Position numbers and translations under genes: made by a program. The notes below the pieces were generated by a model. That model was not told the origin of the DNA and searched no databases. It saw only the letters and a program-made list of their open reading frames with translations. Shown one piece after another: positions 238-16,625 of a stretch of DNA of 16,625 bases (positions are counted from its first letter, which is position 1; the number at the start of each line of letters is the position of its first letter). The DNA comes from a virus (Duplodnaviria > Heunggongvirae > Uroviricota > Caudoviricetes): the IMG/VR virus record IMGVR_UViG_2778261459_000008. One strand, given 5' to 3'.

Positions 238-570
238 AGAAAAATACAGTTCGCTATCCTACAAATTATCATTCGTCGATGTAAGGAATAGTTATGAATA
301 CAGGCATCTCAAGGCACATAAACACAAAAAAAGATTAATATTCTACTGTTTTATTTTGACGCGGGTTGAAAGAGGCAGAATTAAAACCTCGTAAATTGAA
401 ATATATATTGATGTAGTGAATGTATCTTAGGTAAATAATATATATTATTTATTTAACGATTTATAGCAACTCAATATTAGCCTCTCGTATAAATACACAT
501 TAGGTGATAGATTAACCTTCGCTATTTTCTCACTCTGTGTCGAATATATTTATTTCCTGAATAATTAATC

Positions 571-1233: not shown

Positions 1234-1235
1234 AT

Positions 1236-1415
1236 TCACATTCTGTCCTGAAAATTCAGTTCGTCACAGTTAACCAGTTTTAGTGGATTAACTGAGTTCA
1301 TATTGCGGCATTTGTCTGTTTCTGTTGCCAGCAGTTCAATCCACTGCATCAGTAAAGTATCAAACAGAAAAACGAAGACAGCGAAAACGACGAGCCACCA
1401 ATACTTGCGAATCAT
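1236..1415 (-). CDS. yhdU: small membrane protein YhdU (DUF2556-like)
   Basis: The minus-strand ORF 1236-1442 contains a 59-aa product from the internal Met (MIRKYWWLVVFAVFVFLFDTLLMQWIELL...) with one hydrophobic helix; it sits between envR and yhdJ as in K-12. Start choice (1415 vs 1442) is uncertain. Confidence 0.7.
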   Translation of the reverse strand: MIRKYWWLVVFAVFVFLFDTLLMQWIELLATETDKCRNMNSVNPLKLVNCDELNFQDRM

Positions 1416-1498
1416 TACCTGAGCCTGTGCATGTTTAACCAAGTCTGGCAGGAAATATACACGAAATGAATAATCTGAAAACCAGGCTTACACATCCT

Positions 1499-2383: not shown

Positions 2384-2406
2384 GGTCACTCCCTTTGTGA
2401 CACCTA

Positions 2407-2445
2407 TAAAAAAGGCGCTTCCCCATGCCGAGTAGCGCCTTTTTA
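2407..2445 (-). terminator. rho-independent terminator in the yhdJ-fis intergenic region (A-run, GC stem, T-run; bidirectional in form)
   Basis: AAAAAAGGCGCT-tccccatgccgagt-AGCGCCTTTTT: stem GGCGCT/AGCGCC flanked by an A-tract and a T-tract. Confidence 0.6.
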
Positions 2446-2468
2446 ATCAAGCATTTAGCTAACCTGAA

Positions 2469-2487
2469 TTAGTTCATGCCGTATTTT
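2469..2487 (-). other. fis: fis 3'-terminal fragment (last codons K-Y-G-M-N-stop only), proposed core of the island attachment site / island-chromosome junction
   Basis: Reverse complement of 2469-2487 is AAAATACGGCATGAACTAA, encoding KYGMN-stop, which matches the Fis C-terminus as I recall it. A TGA occurs in frame immediately upstream and the preceding sequence is not fis-like. Position relative to yhdJ (about 85 bp upstream) matches K-12 synteny. Confidence 0.6.
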
Positions 2488-2670
2488 CAAAACCTACGTT
2501 TTTTACCGTTCGGATATGTTTGCTAATGTTCATCTATGATACTGATATAAAACAATAAAATTGATTTATCGGTTTGCCTTTGTTCATTGCCGTTCATAGA
2601 GTAACATTGATATGTGCAGTCAGTGGTGCAGTCAGTTTGGCGTACCAAATGATATGAACTGAGGTTTTCA

Positions 2671-3894
2671 ATGGCTGGTGGAACGAACAAATTAAGCGAT
2701 ACATCGCTTCGTAAAATGCTGGGAAGGGAGAGCCCCGGAGACAGCTTCTATGCTGATGGCGATGGGCTAAGTGTGAAGGTGTCCAGATCGGGCGTGTTGA
2801 CTTGGTATTTCACTTTCCGCATAGGTGGCCGGGAATCAACATCTCAGCGTATAAAGCTGGGTAATTATCCAGACCTTTCACTCAAAGCAGCTCGTGAGAA
2901 ACGAGAGCAGTGTCGCGCATGGCTCGCAGAGGGAAAGAATCCAAAGCACCAGTTGAGCGTTACGACTCAGGAAACGTTAAAGCCGGTGACAGTCAGGGAT
3001 GCCCTTGAATACTGGATCAGGGAATATGCCACCCATAACCGCGCTAATGTTGAAAAGCACATTGAGCAGCTCAATAAGCATATCTTTCCTTATATAGGTA
3101 CTTATCCGCTTTCTATGTGTGAAACTCGCCACTGGCTGGAATGTTTCGCCAGGGTAAGGAACGAAGCGCCTGTAGCGGCTGGCTATCTTTTGCAGATGTG
3201 TAAGCAAGCACTCAAGTTCTGCCGGGTTCATCGGTATGCGGTGAGTAACGTCCTGGACGATCTGACCATTGACGATGTTGGACGTAAACAGAATAAGCGG
3301 GACAGGGAGCATACCCGGCAAGAACTTGCTGATATATGGCGAGAATGCTCAGGCCTGAAATTTAAGCCCTACTACTCAGCTCTATTACGTCTGCTGGTGG
3401 TGTTTGGCTGCCGAACTCAGGAGCTGAGATTATCTCGCGTAACCGAATGGGATCTAAATGATTGGGTTTGGACGGTACCTAAAGAGCACAGCAAAGGTGG
3501 TGAGAAAATACTACGGCCTATTCCCGTAGATATTCGCCCATTTATCAAACAGCTTTTAGAGCAGCACCAAAGCACAGGGCTATTGCTGGGAGAGATAAAG
3601 AAACCGGAAGCTGTCAGTCAGTGGGGAAGGATGTTGTATAAGCGTCTGGGCCACTCTGAACCGTGGACGCTTCACGATTTACGCCGTACATTTTCCACGA
3701 CTCTGAACAACATGGGAATTGCTCCGCATGTTGTCGAGCAGCTTCTGGGCCATGCGCTGGGCGGTGTCATGTCCGTATATAACCGCAGTCAGTATTTACC
3801 TGAAAAGCTGGATGCACTGAATAAATGGATGCAGAGATTAGATGTTATTACCTCTGATATCTCAAATGTTACTATTCTTGAGGTCGCAAGATGA
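2671..3894 (+). CDS. int: tyrosine site-specific integrase (P4/CP4-57-like phage integrase family)
   Basis: 407-aa ORF; N-terminal DUF4102-like arm-binding region (GLSVKVSRSGVLTWYFTFRIGGRESTSQRIKLGNYPDLSLKAAREKREQCRAWLAEGKNP); C-terminal catalytic signature (HDLRRTFSTTL ... LGHALGGVMSVYNRSQY); SD GAGG 8 nt upstream of the ATG. Confidence 0.9.
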   Translation: MAGGTNKLSDTSLRKMLGRESPGDSFYADGDGLSVKVSRSGVLTWYFTFRIGGRESTSQRIKLGNYPDLSLKAAREKREQCRAWLAEGKNPKHQLSVTTQETLKPVTVRDALEYWIREYATHNRANVEKHIEQLNKHIFPYIGTYPLSMCETRHWLECFARVRNEAPVAAGYLLQMCKQALKFCRVHRYAVSNVLDDLTIDDVGRKQNKRDREHTRQELADIWRECSGLKFKPYYSALLRLLVVFGCRTQELRLSRVTEWDLNDWVWTVPKEHSKGGEKILRPIPVDIRPFIKQLLEQHQSTGLLLGEIKKPEAVSQWGRMLYKRLGHSEPWTLHDLRRTFSTTLNNMGIAPHVVEQLLGHALGGVMSVYNRSQYLPEKLDALNKWMQRLDVITSDISNVTILEVAR

Positions 3895-4733
3895 TAAAAA
3901 AAATTAACAGTAAAAGAGACTTACCAAAGTCATTCAGCTTAGAAAAATATGATGACCTTGAAAATATGTCTGATAAGGATTTGTTTCGTCAGCTTTATTG
4001 GCGATGCGATGATTTAACAATAAAAAATACAGACTGCCCTGACTATGGTTTGCAATATGGTGCTAAATACCCGCTTAACAATAATTTTGGTGATCCATTC
4101 GGGGAACTCAAAGCAGAAGAATGGTTTCTTGAAAAGCAAAAGGAATACGAGTACAAGACTCAGCCTGATTTGCTGAAATTAAGTTACGGCGATGGTATAA
4201 AACCATTAATGCGATTTGAGTTGGCATTTTTAAATAAAATCAATGCTGATAAAGGTCACTGGAAAGGAAAGCCAATAGTAGTTGACGATGATTTGGTGGG
4301 GGATTTGTTTACAGCAGATAACGGTATGTTTTGGGCTGTCATGCGTGAGCCAGTAAACTTACTTTCTGATGTTGTGGAAAACGTGATGATTACTGTTGAC
4401 TTAAACAACAGAGATGATCTTTTGATTGAAGCATTCACGAACCTCCTCCCAAAATGGCGCGAAGAACTCGGAATACCTGAACCAGATAAGCCAGTCTCAG
4501 GGGACTGGGAGAGCGTCAGACGGAAGATAATTGACTACAGAATAATTCCACTTATTGATTTGATGTCATGGGAAAGCGCTACCGACAGCAAAATATCCCT
4601 TGGCGTACTCGCAGTATCCCTGTTCCCGGATGGGGAAAAGGAGTCCTTTGCCATAGCTCAAACGGTGAAACCTTTCTTGGATAAAATTATGAGAAGTGAT
4701 TCTTTAGATAAAATCAGGAAAGAATTATCTTGA
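3891..4733 (+). CDS. hypothetical protein, 280 aa, AT-rich cargo gene translationally coupled to the integrase (ATGA overlap)
   Basis: Uninterrupted ORF whose ATG overlaps the int stop (ATGA at 3891-3894); visibly lower GC than flanking genes; no motif I can assign; followed by a strong terminator. Confidence 0.6.
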   Translation: MIKKINSKRDLPKSFSLEKYDDLENMSDKDLFRQLYWRCDDLTIKNTDCPDYGLQYGAKYPLNNNFGDPFGELKAEEWFLEKQKEYEYKTQPDLLKLSYGDGIKPLMRFELAFLNKINADKGHWKGKPIVVDDDLVGDLFTADNGMFWAVMREPVNLLSDVVENVMITVDLNNRDDLLIEAFTNLLPKWREELGIPEPDKPVSGDWESVRRKIIDYRIIPLIDLMSWESATDSKISLGVLAVSLFPDGEKESFAIAQTVKPFLDKIMRSDSLDKIRKELS

Positions 4734-4811
4734 TATAACTGAATCAGGGTAACTCCTTTAGAGGAATATAATTTTTTTCTCACCGTCGCGGTGATAATTT
4801 TTTTGAATAAG

Positions 4812-4848: not shown

Positions 4849-5058
4849 ATGAACAATATTAAACAATCCCAGCAGCCAGCAGAAAGAGTTATCCGTGAGG
4901 CTGAGTGCCGGCAGCTAACCGGTATTTGTCGAACCACTCGATACATGATGGAAAAAGAGGGGAGCTTTCCCGCCCGCCGCAAGCTGGGAGGTCGTGCTGT
5001 TGGTTGGCTTCTGTCTGAGGTCACAGCATGGCAGCAGAGCCGCAGCAAAGCAGCGTGA
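4849..5058 (+). CDS. alpA: AlpA-family phage/island transcriptional regulator (excisionase-like HTH)
   Basis: 69-aa product MNNIKQSQQP...CRQLTGICRTTRYMMEKEGSFPARRKLGGRAVGWLLSEVTAWQQ carries the AlpA signature (LTG.sR.T.Y....G.FP....LGGR.VGW...E...W). Start at 4849 chosen over the upstream in-frame ATG at 4813 by length similarity to AlpA; no clear SD for either. Confidence 0.8.
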   Translation: MNNIKQSQQPAERVIREAECRQLTGICRTTRYMMEKEGSFPARRKLGGRAVGWLLSEVTAWQQSRSKAA

Positions 5059-5667: not shown

Positions 5668-5877
5668 TCAACCTTTTGGTTCTATTCCTTGCCGACGCAA
5701 TTCCGCGCGAGCTAATTCTTTTATCCAATTACCAAGACTTACGCCTTCGCGCTCCGCTGCATCGTTCAGTTGCTGGCGTAGATCAGGGTTGATTCTGATC
5801 TGGAAAGTAGGTGACCAGCCATCACCTTTAGGGGTTTTGTCTCGTTTAATTGTTGACACGTACGTACATAACCTCAT
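5668..5877 (-). CDS. ribbon-helix-helix (CopG/Arc/MetJ-like) DNA-binding protein; start codon uncertain (ATG at 5877 or GTG at 5859)
   Basis: The C-terminal 45 aa (SPTFQIRINPDLRQQLNDAAEREGVSLGNWIKELARAELRRQ) has the beta-strand plus two-helix pattern of RHH repressors. The ORF-track N-terminal extension to 5970 is merely the translation of the palindrome and is unlikely to be coding. Confidence 0.55.
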   Translation of the reverse strand: MRLCTYVSTIKRDKTPKGDGWSPTFQIRINPDLRQQLNDAAEREGVSLGNWIKELARAELRRQGIEPKG

Positions 5878-5992: not shown

Positions 5993-6205
5993 ATGGCTGA
6001 ATTACAGCATACCCAAACTCGCCCGGAATTTACATGGAGATTTATCTCTGCTTCTGAGCGCTACCCTACCGCCAAACCATTGGTGATCTACGTCAACGCA
6101 TCCAGCGAACAGGAGGCCCGCGACACTATGCCGGGTGTAAACCTCATTTTCGCAGCACGTCTCCCATTCCATGCCTTTCAGGCAATGGAGGTACGCCATG
6201 CGTGA
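5993..6205 (+). CDS. hypothetical protein, 70 aa, first gene of the replication-module operon
   Basis: ATG at 5993 with GAGG 8 nt upstream; product MAELQHTQTRPEFTWRFISASERYPTAKPLVIYVNASSEQEARDTMPGVNLIF...; stop overlaps the next start. The 403-aa track ORF 4994-6205 is mostly spurious read-through; only this 3' part looks genic. Confidence 0.5.
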   Translation: MAELQHTQTRPEFTWRFISASERYPTAKPLVIYVNASSEQEARDTMPGVNLIFAARLPFHAFQAMEVRHA

Positions 6206-6383
6206 ATTAACCAATAAAAGTGCGTCAATAGCCTGTGAACTGGCTGCGTTGTTGATGGTTGTCGAAGAGTGCGACGTTGATCAGGTTGAGCGTGAAAACC
6301 TTATCAGTCTGGCCAGACGAGTATCGGATCAACTGGCGGCAAGCATGGTCGAGCAGAATTCAACGGGGGGGCTCAATGGATAA
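6198..6383 (+). CDS. hypothetical small protein, 61 aa, paralogue of the next gene
   Basis: ATG at 6198 with GGAGG 6 nt upstream; overlaps upstream stop and downstream start. Confidence 0.5.
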   Translation: MRELTNKSASIACELAALLMVVEECDVDQVERENLISLARRVSDQLAASMVEQNSTGGLNG

Positions 6384-6603
6384 CTTTTACACCTACCGCA
6401 GCAAAAAAGATTTGCTGTTACTGGCGCAAGAGGTTGCCGCGCTTCTGTCATGTGCTGCTTACCTTGCGACTACCAGAGGCGAGGAAGAGCGTATCCATGT
6501 AATGAGTTTGACGCACCTGGCTCAACGGCTTTCTGACGAGCTGGCAAACTCACTGGATATTTCTACTTTTTCAGACCCTGAATCGCGGGAGGCAAAATCA
6601 TGA
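6376..6603 (+). CDS. hypothetical small protein, 75 aa, paralogue of the previous gene
   Basis: ATG at 6376 preceded by a G-rich SD-like run; shares the pattern A..LAALL...ER...SLA.R.SD.LA.S with the 6198-6383 product; overlaps the next start (ATGA at 6600-6603). Confidence 0.5.
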   Translation: MDNFYTYRSKKDLLLLAQEVAALLSCAAYLATTRGEEERIHVMSLTHLAQRLSDELANSLDISTFSDPESREAKS

Positions 6604-6968
6604 TCAGCAATGTGAAGTTTTACGAGCTGGCTAAGCGCGTTGATCTGCTGGTTGAAAAGGTTTTGCATCTTGAGGCACAGGTTAAGTCACTCACTGATAG
6701 TCAGGGGGGGGAAATCCCTCCGGGTATGACGCCAGTAGCAACACTGGCCGCTGAATACGGTATCTCAACCAATAAGGCTGAGGAACTGGCGAAAAACACA
6801 GGGGTGATGCTGGTTAAGCTGAAATCTGGCGGGTTCGTTGCACCTGATGAAAAGTTCAGGGAAGCGGCGCGTCTGGTGCTGCGCAGCGCTAAGCGCAAAT
6901 ATGGCTCTGCGTACTGGTTCCATCCTCTGATCGGCAAATTCCAGATGAGCGGGGGCATTCCAAAATGA
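6600..6968 (+). CDS. hypothetical protein, 122 aa, translationally coupled to the helicase gene
   Basis: ATG at 6600 with GGGAGG 8 nt upstream; ATGA overlap with the downstream gene at 6965-6968; no recognisable motif. Confidence 0.55.
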   Translation: MISNVKFYELAKRVDLLVEKVLHLEAQVKSLTDSQGGEIPPGMTPVATLAAEYGISTNKAEELAKNTGVMLVKLKSGGFVAPDEKFREAARLVLRSAKRKYGSAYWFHPLIGKFQMSGGIPK

Positions 6969-8329
6969 CGGTACAACTGACAGCTGTAGAAACCGTTTCT
7001 GATGCCCTGTTCACCTGTTCGTATCTGTGGGCGCACGGCAAGCAATACAGTCGCAGCGATTTGGATAAAGCGCTCCACCAGCATAAGGACCCCACTACCC
7101 GTTACGGAAAGCTGGTGGCTCGCCTCAACCAGATAGCAGCAATGCCGTATGAGGAACTCTGTGATGCCGGATATCTCGATACGGACCGCAAACAAATGAT
7201 TACAGCGCGGCGTTCTGTGCTGGTGGAAGAGATAGGCGAAGGGGAAATGAATGCCATGCTGTCTGACGTGCAGCGCATTCACCGGGTCTTCCCTGATGCT
7301 GGTGCAAAGTTCAGGACAAAGCTGCCTCTCTCTCGCGGTTCTGAGGGCTTTGATATCCGTCAGGACTATGTCCTTAAACACTTTCTGCCAGCGCAATCAC
7401 TGTGCAGCATTTACGGTCCCAGCGGTTCGTATAAGAGTTTTCTCGCTGTATCGTGGGCCTGTCACATTGCTGCGGGTCTGCCATGGGCTGGGAAGAAGGT
7501 CACTTCCGGCGCGGTGCTGTATGTGGTTGGTGAGGGGGGCGTAGGCGTTCCCCGGCGTATAAAGGCTTGGGAGCAGGTGCACGGCATACAGGCGGACAAC
7601 CTCTGGCTGGTCAATCGTCCGGTGTTTCCTGTGCGCGAGTCAGAGGTAACGGAAGTGCTTCTGGCTGCCAGACAGATTGAAGCTGAATGTGGTGTGCCGG
7701 TTCGCATGGTGGTGATCGATACGCTGGCCCGTTGTTTTGGCGGTAACGACGAGAACGATGCTCGTGATATGGGGGCATTTATTGAAGGGTGTGACGTTAT
7801 CAAACAGAAAACGGGTGCAACGGTGCTGATAGTTCACCACTCCGGCAAAGATGAAGGGAAAGGCGCTCGCGGTTCCAGTGCTTTCCGCGCTGCGCTTGAT
7901 ACTGAATTTAACGTTAAGCGTGAAGGGGATGGAAAGGCGCTTATTCTGACCTGTACCAAGATGAAAGACGCGGAGGAGCCAGAGCGTAAAGCGTATGACC
8001 TGAGAACGGCAGAGCTTTACACCGATGAAGATGGTGAGCTTGTTTGCTCTCTGGTTGTGCACGATCAGCCGAGAGAGGCTAAAGAGGTTGAGCCTGAACT
8101 GGCCAATGTCTCCCGTCTTAGCGATAACCACCATGCATTATGGCAGGCAGTACGCAGCCGCACAGCTAAGGGGGAGCCATGCACTATCTCCGTCATTAAA
8201 GATGATCTGCGTGCAACACTGGGGACAGATAAAGTGAGAAAGTCATTCTCGCGCTGGCTGGACAAGCTGGAGAGTGAGCAAATTATTCGCATCGAGGGTG
8301 AGAACCTTTACCCGGTAACAGTCGAGTAA
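6965..8329 (+). CDS. replication initiator/helicase, RecA-like AAA_25 (RepA-like) ATPase with predicted C-terminal winged-helix DNA-binding domain
   Basis: Walker A (IYGPSGSYKSF), Walker B-like (VRMVVIDTLARCFGG), HHSGKD motif; C-terminal about 90 aa basic and helical; immediately followed by iterons. Confidence 0.8.
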   Translation: MTVQLTAVETVSDALFTCSYLWAHGKQYSRSDLDKALHQHKDPTTRYGKLVARLNQIAAMPYEELCDAGYLDTDRKQMITARRSVLVEEIGEGEMNAMLSDVQRIHRVFPDAGAKFRTKLPLSRGSEGFDIRQDYVLKHFLPAQSLCSIYGPSGSYKSFLAVSWACHIAAGLPWAGKKVTSGAVLYVVGEGGVGVPRRIKAWEQVHGIQADNLWLVNRPVFPVRESEVTEVLLAARQIEAECGVPVRMVVIDTLARCFGGNDENDARDMGAFIEGCDVIKQKTGATVLIVHHSGKDEGKGARGSSAFRAALDTEFNVKREGDGKALILTCTKMKDAEEPERKAYDLRTAELYTDEDGELVCSLVVHDQPREAKEVEPELANVSRLSDNHHALWQAVRSRTAKGEPCTISVIKDDLRATLGTDKVRKSFSRWLDKLESEQIIRIEGENLYPVTVE

Positions 8330-8330
8330 A

Positions 8331-8522
8331 TGCGGCGGTAAGTGCGGCATGTGCGGCATTTAGTATGTTTTATGACCAAATGCCGCACTTAGCCCCTGTA
8401 TACACGCGCTAAGTGCGGCATTTCACTGAAACCACCGTCATTACTGGTTTTGCATGATTTTTTGAGATAACTGGTGCGGCGCTAAGTGCGGCATTACTAA
8501 ACGCGGCACTAAATGCGGCAAG
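8331..8522. repeat. iteron array (replication origin): about 6-7 copies of TAAGTGCGGCATT-like repeats in both orientations plus an AT-rich stretch
   Basis: Copies read at about 8339-8349, 8351-8360, 8379-8393 (reverse), 8410-8424, 8484-8497 and 8510-8522, with degenerate TGCGGCGG at 8331 and CGCGGCAC at 8502; AT-rich 8440-8470. Confidence 0.75.
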
Positions 8523-8543: not shown

Positions 8544-8783
8544 ATGCCTATTACGATTCATGAAATAAAGGAACATTACGATTATTACGGGCTTCATGAT
8601 ATGGTCTCCATGTCAACGAAAGAATACCAACAGATTTTAGCTAATGGTGCTTTGTTCTGGATGGATCATCATGATTTTGTTCGCAGCACTCTTTCCGATG
8701 AAATCTTGGCAACAAACAAGGAGCAACTAGATGCAATAATTGAGCATCTACAACAATACAGAGACAGAATGCCTTCTGCCTAG
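8544..8783 (+). CDS. hypothetical small protein, 79 aa, AT-rich cargo
   Basis: ATG at 8544 with AAGGAG 5 nt upstream; product MPITIHEIKEHYDYYGLHDMVSMSTKEYQQILANGALFWMDHHDF...; followed by a hairpin at 8793-8813. Confidence 0.6.
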   Translation: MPITIHEIKEHYDYYGLHDMVSMSTKEYQQILANGALFWMDHHDFVRSTLSDEILATNKEQLDAIIEHLQQYRDRMPSA

Positions 8784-8820: not shown

Positions 8821-10065
8821 TCAATAATTAAAGTGACTTTCAACTGAAAGTTGTTTGCAGCCCAATAATTTTAAAGCTTTTCGAATGTAATATAAAGCAG
8901 CGGTATTGTCGATAATGTAGCGGAAGGCTTCATTTTTATCTTGTTGTGCATCTCTTAAATTTCTTTCAAATTCTCTTTCATAATCTTCTGCGTAATATTG
9001 ATTGGATTGTCGGCCCATAATAATCAATGTGGTTAAATCTGCTAATTCTTCCTCTGAAAAGAGAGGTAGGTAAGTAGTGGTGATGCGCATTTTTAACCGT
9101 AGGTAGTCTAAAAAATCTTCTGCTCTGATATCGGATAAACTAATTCCTGAATCCTGTAGTGGGTCCAGAAATACGTTATTTTTTTTCATTACGTCTTTTA
9201 TATGTAGTGCGTACCAAGCTTTTTTAAAACGCAATAGTGTATTTTTCCCGCTATGTTTAAGTGGAAATTCAACGCCAATTAAAGATGATAGGTATCTATT
9301 TACAACAATTTTGTCGATTGCTTTTATAAGTTGTTTGTTGCTATTGAGATTAAATTTTTTCTTGATGAATTCCTTTTTTTTCACTGTAAGTGTAGTTACC
9401 CATTCATTTTTATTACCTAGAGCTTTTGAAAGCTTGATTAGATCACGGCGTGAAAATTTATCGGTATACGTACCTGTTTTATACTCATCTTTCAGATTTA
9501 GAGTGAGCTTAATTATTTCTCGCAAACCTTCCGTGAGCTTTTTGAAATAAACAACAAATCTTACAAGGTTAATGATCGGTGTTTTTTCCAAATGTGTCGC
9601 TCCGACATTGGACTCAGGGTATCTAAAAGTTTGTGCTGTGTCGTCTATAGCCACAAAGTCTAATATATAAGGCTCGATTTTTTTTGTAATGTGAAATAGT
9701 CGTATATCTGTCCTCTCAGCGACATCAATCGTGGCATCCCATAGTTTCTTGATGCTGTGGATTTTTGTCACATCAGGAACTGATATCGCCAATCCTCGGA
9801 GATCTGCCATGTCAATGAGGATAGTCTTTAGAGAAAGCTCAATTCCGTGCCTGGCAGAGTAGGCAATCGGATAAACAAGTAAATCAACTTCTCCTCTCTT
9901 GTTATTTTTGTATATATAGTCAGTAAGTATCTCTGGGGTTCTAAGGTAACCTTCAGCATAAGTTAATGAGTCAGGGAAACCATTCGTTCCGACGCAAGCA
10001 TTCAGCCAATCAAATCGACCATTGCCCAAACCAAAGGTGTTATTAAAGATTGTTTCTTTTTCCAT
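8821..10065 (-). CDS. hypothetical protein, 414 aa, AT-rich cargo gene on the opposite strand to the island backbone; candidate accessory/anti-phage function
   Basis: Uninterrupted minus-strand ORF with ATG at 10065 and AAGGA 8 nt upstream; markedly AT-rich versus flanking replication and capsid genes; no Walker, HNH, DPPY or other catalytic motif recognised. Confidence 0.7.
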   Translation of the reverse strand: MEKETIFNNTFGLGNGRFDWLNACVGTNGFPDSLTYAEGYLRTPEILTDYIYKNNKRGEVDLLVYPIAYSARHGIELSLKTILIDMADLRGLAISVPDVTKIHSIKKLWDATIDVAERTDIRLFHITKKIEPYILDFVAIDDTAQTFRYPESNVGATHLEKTPIINLVRFVVYFKKLTEGLREIIKLTLNLKDEYKTGTYTDKFSRRDLIKLSKALGNKNEWVTTLTVKKKEFIKKKFNLNSNKQLIKAIDKIVVNRYLSSLIGVEFPLKHSGKNTLLRFKKAWYALHIKDVMKKNNVFLDPLQDSGISLSDIRAEDFLDYLRLKMRITTTYLPLFSEEELADLTTLIIMGRQSNQYYAEDYEREFERNLRDAQQDKNEAFRYIIDNTAALYYIRKALKLLGCKQLSVESHFNY

Positions 10066-10312: not shown

Positions 10313-11482
10313 ATGAAGAAATTAATCGAACTCCGCCAGCAAAAAACCGCCCTGAAAAACCAGATGCGATCCCTGCTGGAAAAAGCCGACAGTGAAAACC
10401 GCAGTCTGACCGATGACGAGGGCAAACAGTTTGATGAACTGCGTGCAAAAGCTGATTCCCTCGATACAGACATTTCCCGCCTCGAGTCTGTGGCTGATGA
10501 AGAACGCAGCAAGCCAGGAACGGGCATCCAGAAATTATCATCTGATGAATTGCGTAACTACATCGTAACCGGAGATGTGCGATCTCTGTCCACCAGCACT
10601 GACAGCGGCAGGGATGGCGGATATACCGTAATTCCTGAGCTTGATCGCGAAGTCATGCGCCAGCTACAGGATGACAGTGTTATGCGCGTGATCGCGACCG
10701 TGAAGACTGCAAAATCAAATGAGTTTCAGAAACTGGTTTCCACTGGCGGCGCAACTGTAGGACGAGGCACAGAAGGCAGCGCACGCAGTGAAACCAACAC
10801 CCCGAAAATTGAACGCGTAACCATCAAGCTGAATCCGATCTACGCCTACCCGAAAACCACGCAGGAAATCCTGGATTTTTCAGAGGTGGATATTCTGGGC
10901 TGGTTATCCTCCGAAATTGCCGACACGTTCGCCAGCACCGAAGAGGATGATTTTGTTAATGGCGACGGTAACGGCAAGCCGAAAGGCTTCATGGCTTACA
11001 CCCGTGCGGCGACCAGTGACAAAACCCGCGCTTTTGGCACCATTGAAAAAATGGTAGCGGCAAGTGGAACCGCCATTACAGCGGACGAACTGATCGACAT
11101 TCTCTACAAGCTGAAAGCGAAATACCGCAAAAATGCCGTCTGGGTGATGAACTCGGGCACGGCAGGGACACTACAGAAGCTGAAAAATGAGAACGGCGAT
11201 TATATCTGGCGCGACAGCCTTAAAGAAGGTGCGCCGGATATGTTGCTTGGTCGTCCTGTTTACTGCCTGGAGTCCATGCCGGACATCGGCGCAGGAAAAG
11301 CACCGCTAGCGGTTGGCGATTTCAGTCGTGGTTATTTCATCGTTGATCATGTAACAGGGATTCGCACCCGACCGGACAACATTACTGAACCCGGATTCTA
11401 CAAGGTCCACACGGATAAATATCTGGGCGGTGGTGTGGTGGATTCAAACGCCATCAAAATTCTGGAAATGAAAGCTGGCTAG
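10313..11482 (+). CDS. major capsid protein, HK97 fold, with N-terminal coiled-coil delta (scaffold) domain
   Basis: 389 aa; N-terminal about 70 aa is a charged coiled coil (LIELRQQKTALKNQMRSLLEKADSENRSLTDDEGKQFDELRAKADSLD); FVNGDGNGKPKGF motif typical of HK97-family capsids; strong terminator immediately downstream. Confidence 0.85.
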   Translation: MKKLIELRQQKTALKNQMRSLLEKADSENRSLTDDEGKQFDELRAKADSLDTDISRLESVADEERSKPGTGIQKLSSDELRNYIVTGDVRSLSTSTDSGRDGGYTVIPELDREVMRQLQDDSVMRVIATVKTAKSNEFQKLVSTGGATVGRGTEGSARSETNTPKIERVTIKLNPIYAYPKTTQEILDFSEVDILGWLSSEIADTFASTEEDDFVNGDGNGKPKGFMAYTRAATSDKTRAFGTIEKMVAASGTAITADELIDILYKLKAKYRKNAVWVMNSGTAGTLQKLKNENGDYIWRDSLKEGAPDMLLGRPVYCLESMPDIGAGKAPLAVGDFSRGYFIVDHVTGIRTRPDNITEPGFYKVHTDKYLGGGVVDSNAIKILEMKAG

Positions 11483-11494
11483 TCATGAGTAAGG

Positions 11495-11517
11495 AGGAGG
11501 CTGCGGCCTCCTTTTTC
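11495..11517 (+). terminator. rho-independent terminator directly after the capsid gene
   Basis: AGGAGGC-tgcg-GCCTCCT followed by TTTTT. Confidence 0.65.
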
Positions 11518-11536
11518 AGCTTTATGGAGTACACCG

Positions 11537-12097
11537 ATGAAAAACACCGATTTTGAAATCCGCACATCTGAACTGACCGCCAGCAATAAAAAGCTGGTGG
11601 GGTATGCCGTTCGCTGGAACAGCCTTTCAGAAATTATCTGGGACGAATTCCGCGAACAGTTCACGCCGGGGGCTTTTGCTGACTATCTGGCGGCGGGTAA
11701 TGATGTGCGCTGCCTGTATGAGCATGACTATACCCAACTGCTGGGGCGCACCAAATCCGGCACTCTGGTACTGACTGAGGATAACACCGGGTTACGTTTT
11801 GAGCTGACACCGCCGGATACCCAGCTTGGAAAAGATGTGCTTACGCTGGTGGAGCGTGGCGACATTACAGGAATGAGCTTTGGTTTTCGCGCATTATGCG
11901 AGGAGTGGAGTATCGCGCAAAAACCGTATCTGCGTACCGTAACCGCCGCTGAACTCCGTGAAATCACAATAACGTCGATGCCTGCTTATCCAGAATCTGG
12001 CGTGGAGATTGCCCGCCGTTCGTTGTTTGCACAGCACCCTGAATTACGTCCGACAGGAAATAATCGTCATCGTTGGTCTGAGTTGGCGGGGTTGTGA
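11537..12097 (+). CDS. prohead maturation protease (HK97 family, S78/U35-like)
   Basis: 186 aa; N-terminal ...KKLVGYAVRWNSLSEII...FTPGAF pattern typical of HK97 prohead proteases; GGAG 7 nt upstream of the ATG. Confidence 0.8.
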   Translation: MKNTDFEIRTSELTASNKKLVGYAVRWNSLSEIIWDEFREQFTPGAFADYLAAGNDVRCLYEHDYTQLLGRTKSGTLVLTEDNTGLRFELTPPDTQLGKDVLTLVERGDITGMSFGFRALCEEWSIAQKPYLRTVTAAELREITITSMPAYPESGVEIARRSLFAQHPELRPTGNNRHRWSELAGL

Positions 12098-12098
12098 T

Positions 12099-13313
12099 AT
12101 GTGGTGGCCTTTTAGTCGTAAAAAAAGCGAGCAGCGTAACCTGTCCATTGATGATTTTCTGGCGCTGTCCGGCGTACCGAATACCGGATCCGGAGAATAT
12201 GTTTCTGCCGGGACGGCTGAATCATTGCCTGCAGTGATGAACGCGGTTTCTGTCATCGCTGAGGCGGTGGCCACGATGCCGTGTTATCTGTATCTGGTAC
12301 GTAATGACAAGGGCAGGGAGGCGCGGGAATGGCTGGACAGTCACCCGGTAGATATTCTGCTGAATGAGCAGCCTAATTCGTGCCAGACACCTTACCAGTT
12401 TAAACGCACAATGATGCGTCACTGCCTGCTGAACGGTAACGCCTATGCGGTTATTGAGTGGGGGCGGGACGGGCAGCCCAAATCACTTCATCCTTATGCA
12501 CCGGGTTGTGTTGTACCGGAACGCACAGGCGCACACAAATACCGATATACCATCACCGAACCCTATACAGGAACGGTGCGCACGTATTTACAGGAAGAAG
12601 TTCTGCATCTCCGCTATGCCTCGGATGATGGCTTTCTGGGGCGCTCCCCCGTCACGATTTGCCGTGAGGCACTTGGGCTTGGCCTTGCTCAACAGCGCCA
12701 CGGAGCCAGCATTATGAAAGATGGCATGATGGCGGCAGGGATTATCACGTCAGGCGAATGGCTGGACGGCGTGAAAGGTAAACAGGCATTAGATGCTCTG
12801 GAACGCTACAAGGGGGCGAAAAATGCCGGAAAAACGCCAATCCTTGAAGGGGGCATGGATTACAAGCAACTGGGAATGAGTAACCAGGATGCGGAATGGC
12901 TGGCCTCCCGTCGCTTCTCCATTGAAGACATCGCCCGCATGTTCAACGTATCGCCTATTTTTCTGCAGGAATACAGCAACAGCACCTACAGCAATTTCAG
13001 CGAGGCAAGCCGCGCGTTTCTGACCATGACAATGCGCCCATGGCTGGCGAACTTCGAACAGCAAATCAAGGCCGCTTTGCTGGTGGCTTCTCCCGTACCT
13101 GGTACCCGTTATCTGGTTGAGTTTGATTCAGCCGATTTATTACGCGCCACACCCACCGAACGTTATGCCACGTATGAGAAAGGGATTAAGAACGGGATCA
13201 TGAATCCGAACGAAGCCCGTGAGCGTGAGGGTATGCCGCCGCGTGAAGGTGGTGACGAGTTCAGCCAGGCATGGAAGCAGACTGTGGAAATTAAAGGTGA
13301 AAAAGATGAGTGA
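12099..13313 (+). CDS. portal protein (HK97 family)
   Basis: 404 aa from the ATG at 12099 (2 nt after the protease stop); conserved portal block RRFSIEDIARMFNVSPIFL; the ORF track's upstream extension to 12009 overlaps the protease gene and is unlikely. Confidence 0.85.
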   Translation: MWWPFSRKKSEQRNLSIDDFLALSGVPNTGSGEYVSAGTAESLPAVMNAVSVIAEAVATMPCYLYLVRNDKGREAREWLDSHPVDILLNEQPNSCQTPYQFKRTMMRHCLLNGNAYAVIEWGRDGQPKSLHPYAPGCVVPERTGAHKYRYTITEPYTGTVRTYLQEEVLHLRYASDDGFLGRSPVTICREALGLGLAQQRHGASIMKDGMMAAGIITSGEWLDGVKGKQALDALERYKGAKNAGKTPILEGGMDYKQLGMSNQDAEWLASRRFSIEDIARMFNVSPIFLQEYSNSTYSNFSEASRAFLTMTMRPWLANFEQQIKAALLVASPVPGTRYLVEFDSADLLRATPTERYATYEKGIKNGIMNPNEAREREGMPPREGGDEFSQAWKQTVEIKGEKDE

Positions 13314-13608
13314 ATCCAGAATTACGCTTAATGAAGTAATGGCCCATCTTCGCCTTGATGATGATTTTTATGGTGAGGTTGAACTTCTGCAAATATATAC
13401 CGATGCGGCGCTGGAAGCCTGCCAGAAGCATATCGGGAAACGTTTTGAAGACGGCCTGGAATTTACCCCGGCAATACGTGTTGGTTGCCTGATGTACATC
13501 GCTTTTCTGTACGAGAACCGGGAAGCGGTTTCACCAGTTGAGCACTCGGAACTGCCTATGGCTATTTCTGCGCTCTGGTCGGTTTATCGTGATGTGGGGG
13601 TGTACTGA
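13306..13608 (+). CDS. head-tail connector / DNA-packaging protein (gp6-like)
   Basis: 100 aa from the ATG at 13306, overlapping the portal stop; N-terminal ITLNEVMAHLRLDDDFYGEVELLQIYTDAALEA pattern typical of gp6-like connectors. Confidence 0.7.
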   Translation: MSESRITLNEVMAHLRLDDDFYGEVELLQIYTDAALEACQKHIGKRFEDGLEFTPAIRVGCLMYIAFLYENREAVSPVEHSELPMAISALWSVYRDVGVY

Positions 13609-14048
13609 TGCCGTGGCAACCATTAAGGCGATGCACTGAGCCGGGCTGTAATAAGCGCGTGAAGTCCGGCAAGTGTGAAGAGCACAGGCGGGCTGCATGG
13701 CGTGCAGAGGATGCCAGACGGGGACACCGCCGCGCACGTGGGTATTCCCGACAGTGGGACAAATACCGCGCCCTGTACCTGAGCAAAAACCCGTTATGCG
13801 TGCGTTGTCTGGCTAAGGGTATTTATACACCAGCTCTTGTGGTGGATCACATCATTCCCATCAATGGCGGCGGTGATGTTCTCTTCTGGCCTGAGTGGAA
13901 TCACCAGGCATTGTGCCAGACGTGCCACAACCGTAAGACGACACGGGAAGATCCAGCCACGAAAGCAAACCGTAAAGCGGGCATGTATCGCGAGCAGGAA
14001 GAACGGGCGGCACACCGTAACGACTGGATGTATGGCGATGATGACTGA
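13608..14048 (+). CDS. HNH endonuclease (packaging-associated)
   Basis: 146 aa; CxxC ... DHIIP ... H ... CQTCHNRK zinc-finger HNH signature; start overlaps the connector stop (TGATG). Confidence 0.85.
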   Translation: MPWQPLRRCTEPGCNKRVKSGKCEEHRRAAWRAEDARRGHRRARGYSRQWDKYRALYLSKNPLCVRCLAKGIYTPALVVDHIIPINGGGDVLFWPEWNHQALCQTCHNRKTTREDPATKANRKAGMYREQEERAAHRNDWMYGDDD

Positions 14049-14217
14049 ACAGGAGCAAACCAGGCTGATACGTGGACTGATAAGGCAGCGTGACACATGG
14101 AAGACACAGGAGACAGAGCACAAAGCCAACAGGACAGGGCGCACAAAACGCACCACAGCGAAGCGATTAACCGACCGTGACCGCGAGGTCATGGAATGTT
14201 TTCGCAATCGCTGGTGA
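14041..14217 (+). CDS. possible small basic protein, 58 aa, overlapping the HNH stop; uncertain
   Basis: ATG at 14041 in an ATGA-type overlap with the HNH stop; product MTEQEQTRLIRGLIRQRDTWKTQETEHKANRTGRTKRTTAKRLTDRDREVMECFRNRW; no clear SD. Confidence 0.3.
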   Translation: MTEQEQTRLIRGLIRQRDTWKTQETEHKANRTGRTKRTTAKRLTDRDREVMECFRNRW

Positions 14218-14336
14218 GGCCGTCAGAGGGGGTGGGGGTGGTTTTCAGGACGAAACCGTCCCTGCCGGACACCGACCGCCCCCTCAAATTTTTGTGCACG
14301 GTAATTTTTTTGAAAATAATTGGGCGAAAAAAGAAC

Positions 14337-14693
14337 ATGGCAAGACCACCAAAAGCCCCCGCTTACCTGGATGAAATCGCGGTCAGGCAGTGGAAGGAAA
14401 AATCGCGCCAGCTTTCCGGGCGGGAAGACCTTACCCCCGCCGACTGGAGCAATCTGGAACTGTATTGTGTTAACTACTCCATATACCGCAAAGCCGTCGA
14501 AGACCTTGCGACGCGCGGGTTCAGCATTGTTAACAGTCAGGGCAGCGAGAGCAGAAACCCCGCACTGAGCGCAAAGGCTGACGCAGAAAGAATAATGATC
14601 AAAATGGCTTCTTTGCTGGGTTTTGACCCGGTAAGCCGTCGCAGAAATCCACCGGAAACAGAGGAAGAGGACGAACTTGACCGCCTGGCATGA
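14337..14693 (+). CDS. terminase small subunit (P27-family-like)
   Basis: 118 aa from the ATG at 14337 (MARPPKAPAYLDEIAVRQWKE...), an N-terminus typical of P27-type TerS; lies directly upstream of and overlaps TerL. Confidence 0.75.
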   Translation: MARPPKAPAYLDEIAVRQWKEKSRQLSGREDLTPADWSNLELYCVNYSIYRKAVEDLATRGFSIVNSQGSESRNPALSAKADAERIMIKMASLLGFDPVSRRRNPPETEEEDELDRLA

Positions 14694-16338
14694 GTACGCA
14701 GAAGGCGTAAAAAACGGCAAAATTACGGCCTGTAAACGACTGAAACAGGCCGTTAAACGGTATTTTTCTGACCTTGAAAACTCCCTTTACACGTTCGATC
14801 CGGAGGTCGTGGAGCGGTTTATTGCCTTTTCCCGGGTGTGTCCGCACGTAAAAGGCGCAATGCGCGGTAGTCCCATTGAACTGGAGCCGTGGCAGCAGTT
14901 CGCCTTTGCCTGCATCCTGGGCTTTAAGGTTAAGGCCACCGGACGGCGCAAATACACCAGCGCATTCATTGAAGTACCGCGAAAAAATGCCAAATCCACG
15001 GTCGCCGCTATCCTGGCTAACTGGTTTCTGGTTATGGAAAACGGGCAGCAGGATATTTACACCGCCGCCGTGAGTCGTGATCAGGCGCGGATCGTGTTTG
15101 ATGATGCGCGTCAGATGTGCCTTTTATCCCGACCGTTACGAAAGCGGGTAAATATTCAGGCGCACAAGGTGATACACCCGAAAACCAACAGCCTGTTAAA
15201 GCCACTGGCAGCAAAAGCGGCAACCATTGAGGGGACAAACCCGAGTCTTGCCATTGTGGATGAATATCACCTGCACCCAGACAACGGGGTTTATTCCGCA
15301 CTTGAGCTGGGGATGGGGGCGCGTCCGGAGGGGCTGTTATTTGCCATCACCACATCGGGGAGCAACGTTGTTTCAGCCTGTAAACAACACTATGACTATT
15401 GCTGTCAGATACTGGATGGTGAAGAGATGAACGAATCCATGTTCGTTCTGATTTACGAGCTGGATGATGAAAGCGAGGTTGACGATCCGGCGATGTGGAT
15501 AAAGGCGAATCCAAATATCGATGTTTCCGTCGATCGTGAAAAACTGGCCTCAACCATCCAGAAAGCGCGGGGTATTCCGTCGCAGTGGGTGGAAATGCTC
15601 ACCAAGCGATTCAATATCTGGTGTCAGGGGGCTACGCCGTGGATGGGTAACGGTGCATGGGCGGAGTGCGCCGGAACGTTCGCGGAGGCGGATTTATACG
15701 GGCAGGAGTGCTACGCGGGGCTGGACTTATCATCAACCAGCGATATTTCCAGCGTGTGCTATGCCTTTCCGGTCGGTAAAAAGATTATGCTGGTTTCCCG
15801 TCACTATCTGCCGGAATTTCAGCTACAGAACCCCGCCAATAAAAACCGCGCCATCTATCGCCAGTGGGTAAAGGCGGGCTGGATACGCACAACACCGGGT
15901 GACTGCATTGATTATGACCGTATCCGTGATGACATCATGGCGGATGCAGAGAATTTCAATATCAGGCTGGTGGGCTTCGATACATGGAACGCCACGCACC
16001 TGAGGACGCAGCTACAGGGGGCAGGATTTGAGGTGGAGCCGTTCCCGCAAACATACCTTCGTTTCAGTCCGGCGGCGAAATCGTTCGAAGTTTTTGTTAA
16101 CCGGAAGGTGATTGTGCATCGTGGTGATCCGGTGCTGGCCTGGTCAATGAGTAATGTTGTGATGCAGAGTGACGCGAACGCCAATATCAAGCCGAACAAG
16201 AAAAAATCATCCAACAAGATAGACCCGAGCGTTGCGGCGCTGATGGCGTTTGGCACATTCCAGGCAGAGCATGAGGAATTTGCATTTGATATGAGCGACA
16301 GCCACAAAGAGCGACTTGCGGCGTTTGATGGGGTATGA
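14677..16338 (+). CDS. terminase large subunit (ATPase/nuclease)
   Basis: 553 aa; apparent TTG start at 14677 with AAGAGG 6 nt upstream (no in-frame ATG/GTG until about residue 61); Walker A-like VPRKNAKST; acidic nuclease-domain motifs; 16-nt overlap with TerS. Confidence 0.85.
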   Translation: MTAWHEYAEGVKNGKITACKRLKQAVKRYFSDLENSLYTFDPEVVERFIAFSRVCPHVKGAMRGSPIELEPWQQFAFACILGFKVKATGRRKYTSAFIEVPRKNAKSTVAAILANWFLVMENGQQDIYTAAVSRDQARIVFDDARQMCLLSRPLRKRVNIQAHKVIHPKTNSLLKPLAAKAATIEGTNPSLAIVDEYHLHPDNGVYSALELGMGARPEGLLFAITTSGSNVVSACKQHYDYCCQILDGEEMNESMFVLIYELDDESEVDDPAMWIKANPNIDVSVDREKLASTIQKARGIPSQWVEMLTKRFNIWCQGATPWMGNGAWAECAGTFAEADLYGQECYAGLDLSSTSDISSVCYAFPVGKKIMLVSRHYLPEFQLQNPANKNRAIYRQWVKAGWIRTTPGDCIDYDRIRDDIMADAENFNIRLVGFDTWNATHLRTQLQGAGFEVEPFPQTYLRFSPAAKSFEVFVNRKVIVHRGDPVLAWSMSNVVMQSDANANIKPNKKKSSNKIDPSVAALMAFGTFQAEHEEFAFDMSDSHKERLAAFDGV

Positions 16339-16625
16339 CGAGAATGACTGAAACTGATCTACTAAAAATAATTCGCCGCATTACCGGAATCAGTCAGCAG
16401 CCTGACGAACAGGCTACACAGCCGGACAGCGTGATAGCCGAAAATTACGCGCGTGTGGTGGCTGAGGTGATGCGCCGTGACGGTATTGAGCTTAACGGCG
16501 TGGATATGCGCAACATACGAACCAGAGTCCTTGAGTTGCTGGCATACCGTCGCCGTTCTCAACAACGGAGGGAGAGCGCGAAAAATACTTACCAGTGGAA
16601 GAAGCCGGAACGACTGCGGCGGTAA
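16335..16625 (+). CDS. hypothetical protein, 96 aa, downstream of TerL (possibly a head-completion/packaging accessory protein)
   Basis: ATG at 16335 overlapping the TerL stop (ATGA); stop at 16623-16625; no recognisable motif. Confidence 0.5.
   Translation: MTRMTETDLLKIIRRITGISQQPDEQATQPDSVIAENYARVVAEVMRRDGIELNGVDMRNIRTRVLELLAYRRRSQQRRESAKNTYQWKKPERLRR

What the first reader, a model, noticed from the sequence alone, without database searches (positions are those of the whole stretch)
2469..2487. Island junction falls in the last codons of fis: only K-Y-G-M-N-stop of fis remains next to yhdJ
The fis-yhdJ spacing and terminator are as expected, but fis homology stops after about 19 nt and the integrase gene begins 180 bp further on. 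This is the pattern left by an integrase that targets the 3' end of a protein-coding gene, where the element supplies a replacement 3' end and one junction keeps a short duplicate. fis as an integration target would be notable because Fis is a global nucleoid regulator and a known cofactor of phage excision and integration.
Basis: partly seen in the sequence, partly recalled or inferred. Interest (0 to 1): 0.6.

Follow-up and report, generated by a model that had tools for sequence, protein, structure and literature searches.

The report
Phage satellite inserted at fis end
The 19-base scrap of the fis gene next to yhdJ is the left junction of a 15-kb capsid-forming phage satellite (a "fis PICI") that inserts into the last codons of fis and leaves the gene intact; this is real, but thousands of such elements have already been published.

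Summary
Window 2469-2487 (minus strand) is AAAATACGGCATGAACTAA, which is K-Y-G-M-N-stop of Fis, and the integrase gene starts 183 nt further on.

In E. coli HZ13, which is 99.98% identical to window 238-16625, the same sequence recurs 14,938 bp away at the end of an intact fis. The direct repeat there is a perfect 82 nt (window 2406-2487): the last 19 nt of fis, a spacer and the fis terminator. Removing one unit in silico gives the yhdJ-fis sequence found contiguous in 5309 of 5426 complete E. coli genomes.

In other host species the attL/attR identity shrinks to 17-31 nt. Together with a published Klebsiella excision block, this places the crossover within AGTTCATGCCGTA (window 2471-2483). 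The element therefore supplies the stop codon and terminator of fis.

The element carries int, an int-overlapping DUF6387 gene, alpA, a RepA helicase with iterons, and a full HK97-type head and packaging module. It has no tail or lysis genes, so it has the gene set of a capsid-forming PICI. Metagenome contigs show the excised attP form.

Integration at fis is already documented: 3565 "fis PICIs" (Mageeney 2023) and the Vibrio PICMI satellites (Barcia-Cruz 2024). The one small addition is a doubled arm-type motif at fixed positions (-94 and +140) that co-varies with the integrase arm domain. Interest is low.

The parts
2406..2487 (.). attL identity block. This 82-nt direct repeat is shared with attR and comprises the fis terminator, a spacer and the last 19 nt of fis.
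   Evidence: family D1 has two 100%-identical copies 14,938 bp apart in L001 (20207-20288 and 35145-35226). Window coordinate = L001 coordinate - 17801.
2406..2447 (-). fis intrinsic terminator hairpin (AAAAAGGCGCU...AGCGCCUUUUUU). At attL this is the host copy; a near-identical copy is carried by the element at attR.
   Evidence: fold of -26.4 kcal/mol, z = -2.96; inverted repeat I22; the hairpin is present at both attL and attR in four host backgrounds.
2469..2487 (-). fis 3' remnant, AAAATACGGCATGAACTAA (K-Y-G-M-N-stop).
2471..2483 (.). Smallest segment common to all identity blocks, AGTTCATGCCGTA (TACGGCATGAACT on the fis strand). It must contain the strand-exchange region.
   Evidence: L034 block is AGTTCATGCCGTATTTT. 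L003 and L004 blocks end at ...GCCGTATT. The Kpn47.16.fis block TACGGCATGAACTGATAC is from PMC10111431; the 13-mer is exact in 32 of 35 species-level loci, and a 33rd has one mismatch.
2488..2670 (+). P' arm of the attachment site: island-derived, AT-rich, non-coding, and ending at the int start codon.
   Evidence: It aligns with the attP of excised-form contig L013.
2613..2634 (+). Doubled arm-type motif TGTGCAGTCAGTGGTGCAGTCA (P' copy), starting 140 nt right of TCATGCCGTA. A co-oriented P copy lies 94 nt left of the core at attR, outside the window.
   Evidence: family D8; family D3; the spacing is fixed in all integrase subclades and the half-site differs by subclade; the arm domain is the most diverged part of Int where the motif differs.
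2671..3894 (+). Tyrosine integrase, 407 aa, pointing into the island.
   Evidence: Arm-DNA-bind_3 (8e-19), Phage_int_M and Phage_integrase (9e-17).
3891..4733 (+). DUF6387 gene overlapping int by ATGA. It occupies the same position as the PICMI int-overlapping gene 'iolg'.
   Evidence: iolg is needed for excision in PICMI115 (PMC10803314). Homology between the two was not tested.
4849..5058 (+). AlpA-family regulator, the likely excision activator.
   Evidence: Phage_AlpA, 5.9e-16.
5668..5859 (-). Small divergently transcribed Arc/HicB-like (YlcI/YnfO) regulator.
5993..6968 (+). Icd-like small repressor gene followed by three small genes of unknown function (5993-6205, 6198-6383, 6376-6603, 6600-6968).
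6965..8329 (+). RepA-type replicative helicase.
   Evidence: AAA_25, 5.9e-42. Annotation.
8331..8521 (.). Iteron cluster, the likely replication origin.
   Evidence: direct families D2 and D3 and inverted repeats I3, I9, I10 at L001 26132-26322.
8544..8783 (+). Small gene of unknown function (79 aa) between the iteron cluster and the cargo gene.
   Evidence: Annotated as hypothetical. No Pfam match. Matches phrog_1957, a family of unknown function.
8821..10065 (-). Cargo gene of 414 aa with a weak DUF3775 match, sitting in a variable slot.
   Evidence: No PHROG or PADLOC match. L003 and L004 carry different genes in the same slot.
10313..16625 (+). HK97-type head and packaging module:
- major capsid protein 10313-11482
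- S78 prohead protease 11537-12097
- portal 12099-13313
- head-tail connector 13306-13608
- HNH endonuclease 13608-14048
- unknown 14032-14217
- TerS 14337-14693
- TerL 14677-16338
- unknown 16344-16625
   Evidence: Pfam; the portal is full length in the window but truncated in HZ13.

Best explanation
Window 2406-2487 is the attL junction of an integrated phage satellite of about 14.9 kb: a capsid-forming PICI of the published 'fis PICI' group.

Its tyrosine integrase has an N-terminal arm-binding domain, a central domain and a catalytic domain. It recombines an attP on the circular element with an attB at the 3' end of fis. Strand exchange falls within AGTTCATGCCGTA (window 2471-2483, the Y-G-M-N codons of fis).

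attP carries its own copy of the fis end: the last codons, the stop codon, a spacer and the intrinsic terminator. After integration fis is therefore rebuilt intact at attR, with an island-supplied stop codon and terminator. The host's original fis tail and terminator are left as a 19-nt remnant beside yhdJ at attL.

Two co-oriented doubled 9-mers (GTGCAGTCA n3 GTGCAGTCA) sit 94 nt left and 140 nt right of the core. They are probably the arm-type sites bound by the integrase N-terminal domain.

Shown here: the junction, the repeat, the intact fis, the precise empty site, where the identity blocks narrow the crossover to, the gene content, and attP-form contigs of close relatives.

Inferred from relatives: excision is triggered through AlpA (with the int-overlapping gene) after helper-phage or SOS induction. 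The element then replicates from the RepA/iteron origin, packages its DNA into its own small HK97-like capsids through HNH/TerS/TerL, and uses helper-phage tails.
For: Junction and repeat:
- The 19-mer is unique in the window and matches the fis end.
- A perfect 82-nt direct repeat flanks 14,938 bp, with intact fis at the far end, in HZ13. HZ13 is 99.98% identical to window 238-16625.
- The in-silico excised site is 100% identical over 566 nt to contiguous yhdJ-fis. That arrangement is present in 5309 of 5426 complete E. coli genomes.
- 24 genomes carry this integrase type at the same junction.

Crossover position:
- Identity blocks shrink to 17-31 nt in other hosts. In L034 the stop codon is TAA at attL and TGA at attR.

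Excised form:
- Metagenome contigs L013, L056 and L072 are circularly permuted (terS-terL-attP-int...HNH). Their attP matches the in-silico attP.

Integrase and arm sites:
- Integrase domains are Arm-DNA-bind_3, Phage_int_M and Phage_integrase, and AlpA is present.
- The integrase homologue lies 177-272 nt from AGTTCATGCCGTA in 33 of 35 species-level loci across Enterobacterales; the 13-mer is exact in 32 of them and differs at one base in Proteus mirabilis.
- The doubled motif keeps a fixed spacing and changes with integrase subclade. The arm domain is the most diverged part of Int where the motif differs.

Gene content:
- Capsid, protease, portal, connector, HNH, TerS and TerL are present, and no tail or lysis family was found.

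Literature:
- 3565 fis PICIs with consensus block TACGGCATGAACTAA, which can extend into the terminator; Kpn47.16.fis excision was shown with mitomycin C (PMC10111431).
- PICMI satellites integrate at the end of fis (PMC10803314).
- cf-PICI criteria come from bioRxiv 10.1101/2025.02.11.637232.
Against: - The window itself stops about 720 bp short of attR. Intact fis and the second repeat were seen in a near-identical strain (HZ13), not in the window's own genome, and that genome was not found in the complete-genome set.
- No excision, packaging or helper-phage data exist for this particular element.
- Permuted metagenome contigs could in principle come from tandem arrays, which do occur at fis (L023 and L046), rather than from circles.
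- The head-tail 'adaptor' listed among cf-PICI genes was not identified by Pfam or PHROGs.
- Integrase binding to the doubled motif is inferred, not shown.
Confidence: 0.93

Rival explanations
1. The element is a small or degraded prophage that uses fis as its attachment site, not a phage satellite.
For: It encodes a complete HK97-type head and terminase module. IMG/VR lists its relatives as viral contigs.
Against: - The unit between the att repeats is only 14.9 kb.
- No tail, lysis or CI/Cro-type module was found.
- int points inward and alpA follows it, which is the PICI signature.
- PMC10111431 tested 923 new and 203 model fis islands for tail-gene Pfams and found none.
- The gene set meets the published cf-PICI criteria.
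Confidence: 0.04
2. The element entered or moves by RecA-dependent homologous recombination across the 82-nt identity, rather than by integrase-mediated site-specific exchange in the fis codons.
For: In E. coli the identity block is unusually long: 80-82 nt and perfect. That is long enough for occasional homologous exchange. Such exchange could also explain why the island-borne spacer matches the E. coli host exactly.
Against: - In other hosts the same element family sits at the same nucleotide position with only 17-31 nt of identity.
- The Klebsiella element excised within an 18-nt block (PMC10111431).
- An intact integrase and conserved arm sites at fixed distances are maintained across at least 20 genera.
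Confidence: 0.02
3. fis has been truncated by a deletion or rearrangement, and the 19 nt is a dead remnant with no matching second junction.
For: Inside the window there is no second copy of the 19-mer and no intact fis.
Against: - The window simply ends before the far junction.
- In the 99.98%-identical HZ13 locus, fis is intact with the repeat at its end.
- The same holds in L003, L004, L016, L022 and L034.
- All 5426 complete E. coli genomes have a match to the reconstructed yhdJ-fis query, but the summary does not show that each match includes fis.
Confidence: 0.01

Closest known systems
fis PICIs (Mageeney et al. 2023, NAR Genom Bioinform, PMC10111431), including Kpn47.16.fis of K. pneumoniae BAA-2146
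   Same: - Same target: the terminus of fis, with yhdJ on the other side.
- Same identity-block consensus (TACGGCATGAACTAA), extending into the rho-independent terminator.
- An inward-pointing tyrosine integrase followed by alpA.
- No tail genes, and a late zone of head and packaging genes.
   Different: Nothing essential differs. The paper states that the doubled motif of the related HE-PICIs was not found in fis PICI attPs. Here, fis PICIs show their own doubled motifs, with different half-sites, at comparable positions (-94 and +140, against -81 and +132).
Capsid-forming PICIs (cf-PICIs; Alqurainy et al. 2023 is recalled from my own knowledge, and the criteria come from bioRxiv 10.1101/2025.02.11.637232)
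   Same: - About 15 kb in size.
- int, regulation and replication modules.
- Its own capsid, protease, portal, connector, HNH, TerS and TerL.
- No lysis or tail module.
   Different: No function was tested here. The adaptor gene was not identified by profile search. The named model elements mentioned in the paper read here (for example EcCIEDL933) were not compared with this island.
PICMI satellites of Vibrionaceae (Barcia-Cruz et al. 2024, PMC10803314)
   Same: - Integration at the end of fis, flanked by a short direct repeat.
- int with a downstream gene overlapping it by ATGA, followed by alpA.
   Different: - PICMIs are about 6-7 kb and have no capsid or packaging genes.
- They use a DUF3987/DUF5906 primase rather than a RepA helicase.
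- They depend on virulent vibriophages and are packaged as concatemers.
Integrases that target the 3' ends of tRNA genes or icd (P4-like elements, e14 and phage 21)
   Same: attP carries a replacement copy of the target gene's 3' end, so the gene stays functional. A short remnant is left at one junction.
   Different: The target is a protein-coding nucleoid-protein gene, and the replacement includes its transcription terminator.

Membership tests
fis PICI (PMC10111431) | Integrated at the terminus of fis, with an attL/attR identity block containing TACGGCATGAACTAA. | tested here: met
   The block is 82 nt and contains the consensus at window 2469-2483. fis is intact at attR in L001.
fis PICI (PMC10111431) | Precise insertion relative to an uninterrupted attB in related genomes. 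| tested here: met
   The in-silico attB is 100% identical over 566 nt, and yhdJ-fis is contiguous in 5309 of 5426 genomes.
fis PICI (PMC10111431) | Tyrosine integrase pointing inward, with Phage_AlpA present. | tested here: met
   int is at 2671-3894 (+) and AlpA at 4849-5058 (+).
fis PICI (PMC10111431) | [quoted passage not shown] | tested here: met
   Pfam scans of all 20 annotated island proteins found no tail family.
fis PICI (PMC10111431) | Integrase belongs to the clade related to the HE-PICI 11capE integrase (at least 400 bits). | not tested
Indirect support: homologues of 58-98% identity sit at fis in 33 of 35 species-level loci.
cf-PICI | Size of about 10-18 kb. | tested here: met
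   the unit is 14,938 bp.
cf-PICI | [quoted passage not shown] | tested here: met
   All were found except a recognisable adaptor. Two small late genes match only PHROGs of unknown function.
cf-PICI | No lysis genes and no complete tail module. | tested here: met
cf-PICI | Forms its own small capsids and depends only on helper-phage tails. | not testable with these tools
   This needs induction, electron microscopy and transduction experiments.
PICMI (PMC10803314) | Integration at fis, with an int-alpA core. | tested here: met
PICMI (PMC10803314) | DUF3987/DUF5906 primase as the replication gene. | tested here: not met
   The replication protein is an AAA_25 RepA helicase. Sister islands L003 and L004 do carry a primase.
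PICMI (PMC10803314) | Minimal size (about 6-7 kb) with no capsid or packaging genes. | tested here: not met
   14.9 kb with a full head module.

The most novel reading that the evidence does not exclude
The choice of fis may not be neutral. Integration puts the satellite directly downstream of one of the most strongly growth-phase-regulated operons (dusB-fis). A conserved island-borne copy of the fis terminator is then the only barrier to transcription running antisense into the packaging genes. Terminator read-through, or Fis itself acting as a recombination cofactor at the adjacent attR, could couple satellite excision or silencing to host growth state. Both the Enterobacterales fis PICIs and the Vibrio PICMIs use this site, so some selective advantage beyond sequence conservation is possible. 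Nothing here tests this idea. High conservation of the Fis C-terminus and terminator is a sufficient and simpler explanation.
Probability: 0.07. Interest if true: 0.5.

Novelty: already known. Interest (0 to 1): 0.15.

Why it matters
It matters mainly for annotation. The fis scrap is not a pseudogene or a deletion scar. It marks the left end of a mobile, probably active capsid-forming satellite, and it gives that boundary to within a few bases.

The element occupies the fis site in about 0.4% of complete E. coli genomes. About 2% of genomes lack a contiguous yhdJ-fis, although what interrupts the site in most of them was not checked. Elements of this kind move DNA between species by borrowing phage tails.

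The biology of fis targeting is already published, so this is not a new principle. The one useful addition is the pair of doubled arm-type motifs at fixed spacing, whose sequence changes with the integrase arm domain. That gives a natural set of matched integrase/attP specificities for the same attB, which could interest people who engineer integrases.

Tried and rejected
- A second copy of the 19-mer inside the window, allowing up to 3 mismatches: none found. The window ends about 720 bp before attR.
- The window's own source genome, searched through its IS1/acrS junction: no exact match among complete E. coli genomes. The far junction therefore had to be read from HZ13.
- Strain E62 (H25) as an 'empty site': it turned out to carry a different fis-site island with a 54%-identical integrase. 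I built an in-silico attB instead.
- A simple promoter and terminator scan of 2350-2720: no promoter for int was found, and the scan missed the fis terminator because of its loop-size rule. The fold shows the terminator.
- PADLOC and PHROG scans of the cargo gene and small ORFs: no defence-system match.
- Rejected readings: fis truncation by deletion, a complete prophage, and PICMI membership (see the rival explanations and membership tests).

Full report
**1. The observation**

Window 2469-2487 reads TTAGTTCATGCCGTATTTT on the plus strand. Its reverse complement, AAAATACGGCATGAACTAA, occurs once in the window, where about 0.01 matches are expected by chance even with three mismatches allowed. 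It translates as K-Y-G-M-N-stop, preceded by an in-frame stop.

The genes to its left are acrS, yhdU and yhdJ in the E. coli arrangement. The 407-aa integrase ORF begins at 2671, 183 nt to the right.

The sequence is identical to the end of the annotated E. coli fis gene (L001 35208-35226). Homology to fis stops after exactly 19 nt.

**2. What lies around it**

The junction region (window 2200-2900) is 100% identical to E. coli HZ13, NZ_CP128609.1. Window 238-16625 matches that chromosome at 99.98%, with 3 mismatches. Window coordinate = L001 coordinate - 17801.

In HZ13 the inserted segment is flanked by a perfect 82-nt direct repeat, 14,938 bp start to start. The left copy corresponds to window 2406-2487. 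The right copy ends inside an intact 98-codon fis, followed by dusB.

The repeat therefore consists of the last 19 nt of fis, a 21-nt spacer and the fis intrinsic terminator (fold of -26.4 kcal/mol).

Removing one repeat unit in silico gives a 566-nt yhdJ-fis sequence. It is 100% identical to many E. coli chromosomes, including K-12 derivatives. 5309 of 5426 complete genomes have the site contiguous.

Twenty-four genomes carry this integrase type at the junction. Others carry more distant relatives: strain E62, for example, has a 54%-identical integrase at the same nucleotide position.

**3. Where the crossover is**

In E. coli the identity block is too long (80-82 nt) to locate strand exchange. 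Three IMG/VR loci from other hosts contain both junctions.

| Locus | Differences between attL and attR | Remaining identity block |
|---|---|---|
| L016 | In the spacer | Not delimited |
| L022 | In the terminator and spacer | 31 nt |
| L034 | Throughout the spacer | 17 nt, AGTTCATGCCGTATTTT |

In L034 the stop codon is TAA at attL and TGA at the intact fis at attR.

The E. coli blocks end at ...CCGTATT. The experimentally excised Klebsiella element has the block TACGGCATGAACTGATAC (PMC10111431). The common segment across all of these is AGTTCATGCCGTA, window 2471-2483.

Strand exchange therefore falls in the Y-G-M-N codons. The element supplies the stop codon and terminator of the rebuilt fis. 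The 19-nt remnant at attL is part host (stop-codon side) and part island (AAAA side).

**4. The element**

Pfam scans find the following, in order:

- int, with Arm-DNA-bind_3, Phage_int_M and Phage_integrase domains
- a DUF6387 gene overlapping int by ATGA
- Phage_AlpA
- small regulators
- an AAA_25 RepA helicase, followed by an iteron cluster
- a minus-strand cargo gene with a weak DUF3775 match
- major capsid protein, S78 protease, portal, connector, HNH, Terminase_4 and TerL

No tail or lysis family was found. With a 14.9-kb unit, this matches the published search criteria for capsid-forming PICIs (bioRxiv 10.1101/2025.02.11.637232).

**5. Evidence for an excised form**

Among 80 IMG/VR relatives, metagenome contigs L013, L056 and L072 are circularly permuted. 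Their order is terS-terL, non-coding DNA, a single att, then int and so on up to HNH, with no host genes.

The att of L013 aligns base for base with the attP predicted by joining the HZ13 right and left ends. Tandem arrays at fis also exist (L023 and L046). A tandem origin for these contigs therefore cannot be fully excluded, but their unit length argues for circles or packaged genomes.

**6. Arm-type sites**

A doubled motif, GTGCAGTCA n3 GTGCAGTCA, occurs twice in the same orientation.

- One copy starts 140 nt right of TCATGCCGTA (window 2613-2634).
- The other starts 94 nt left of it, directly abutting the terminator copy at attR.

Across the IMG/VR and species-level genome loci the +140 spacing is constant, whatever the distance to the int start codon. 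The half-site changes with integrase subclade: GTGCAGTCA, GTGTAGTCA, GTGTATCAC, GTATAAACA or GTGGGGTA.

The integrase arm domain (residues 1-95) is the most diverged region where the motif differs, at 45-53% identity. It stays at 75% identity in a Yersinia integrase that keeps a near-identical motif even though its catalytic domain is only 62% identical.

This pattern is what arm-type integrase binding sites would show; binding itself is inferred. PMC10111431 describes an analogous doubled motif at -81 and +132 in the related HE-PICIs. It states that this motif was not found in fis PICI attPs. The fis elements appear to carry their own versions.

**7. Distribution**

In 33 of 35 species-level genome loci, an integrase 58-98% identical lies 177-272 nt from AGTTCATGCCGTA. 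The 13-mer is exact in 32 of them and differs at one base in Proteus mirabilis. The hosts include Enterobacter, Klebsiella, Raoultella, Kosakonia, Pantoea, Serratia, Yersinia, Erwinia, Pectobacterium, Brenneria, Rahnella, Xenorhabdus, Providencia and Proteus. The two exceptions are a 27%-identical unrelated hit and a truncated copy.

**8. Comparison with what is known**

- Mageeney et al. 2023 (PMC10111431) mapped 3565 islands in fis and classed them as PICIs. They gave the consensus identity block TACGGCATGAACTAA, noted that it extends into the rho-independent terminator, and noted yhdJ as the usual neighbour. They cited experimental excision of Kpn47.16.fis (their ref. 27, PMC5001619).
- Barcia-Cruz et al. 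2024 (PMC10803314) showed that Vibrio PICMI satellites always integrate at the end of fis. They also showed that an int-overlapping gene (ATGA overlap), together with alpA, is needed for excision.

The window's element meets every tested criterion of a fis PICI and of a cf-PICI. It fails the PICMI criteria on size, packaging genes and primase.

**9. Verdict**

However, fis as an integration target is established knowledge, and this island is an ordinary member of a large catalogued group. Novelty: already known. Interest: about 0.15.

Remaining uncertainty is limited to two points. The far junction was read from a near-identical strain, not from the window's own genome. No functional data exist for this particular copy.

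Noticed in passing
window 1-237: The 3' end of an IS1 transposase gene and the IS1 terminus abut the region upstream of acrS. HZ13 has the normal acrE-acrS intergenic region here, and homology to HZ13 starts at window 238. The window therefore comes from a different strain, with an IS1 insertion next to the acrEF regulator. No exact match was found among complete E. coli genomes.
   Followed up: partly
window 2613-2634, and L001 35116-35143: fis-PICI attPs carry a doubled 9-mer at fixed positions, -94 and +140 from the core. Its sequence co-varies with the integrase subclade and with divergence of the arm domain. The published survey reported that the doubled motif of related HE-PICIs is absent from fis PICIs.
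   Followed up: yes
window 3891-3894: int and the downstream DUF6387 gene overlap by ATGA. This is the same arrangement as the 'iolg' gene that is essential for excision of the Vibrio PICMI115. Sister islands L003 and L004 have a different, unannotated gene in the same overlapping position. Homology to PICMI iolg was not tested.
   Followed up: partly
window 8331-8521: A cluster of direct and inverted about-20-nt iterons (TGCGGCGSTAAGTGCGGCAT) lies immediately downstream of the RepA helicase gene. It is probably the island's replication origin.
   Followed up: no
window 8821-10065 (-): A 414-aa minus-strand gene with only a sub-threshold DUF3775 match and no PHROG or PADLOC hit sits between the replication and packaging modules. 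Sister islands carry two unrelated unknown genes in this slot, so it looks like a variable cargo or defence slot.
   Followed up: partly
window 13278-13280; L001 31079-31081: The portal gene is full length in the window (12099-13313). In HZ13 it has a premature stop (CAG changed to TAG). The HZ13 copy may therefore be packaging-defective while the window copy is intact.
   Followed up: yes
window 2406-2447 and attR copies in L001, L016, L022, L034: The fis terminator hairpin, including its loop (TCCCCATGCCGAGT or TCCCCATGCCGAAG), is almost invariant between host copies and island-borne copies across several genera. The spacer between it and the stop codon varies. The reason for the loop conservation is unexplained; it could reflect a constraint from recombination or from the fis 3' UTR.
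   Followed up: no
L001 34423-34770 (starts at window 16622, mostly beyond the window): The 720-nt non-coding right end of the island contains two copies of a 44-nt element, 82% identical and 304 nt apart. Its function is unknown.
   Followed up: no
L023 and L046 (IMG/VR loci from isolate genomes): These are tandem pairs of islands at fis. In L023 the middle att has a P arm motif of one type (GTATAAACA) and a P' arm motif of another (GTGCAGTCA). This is what successive integration of two different fis PICIs would produce.
   Followed up: partly
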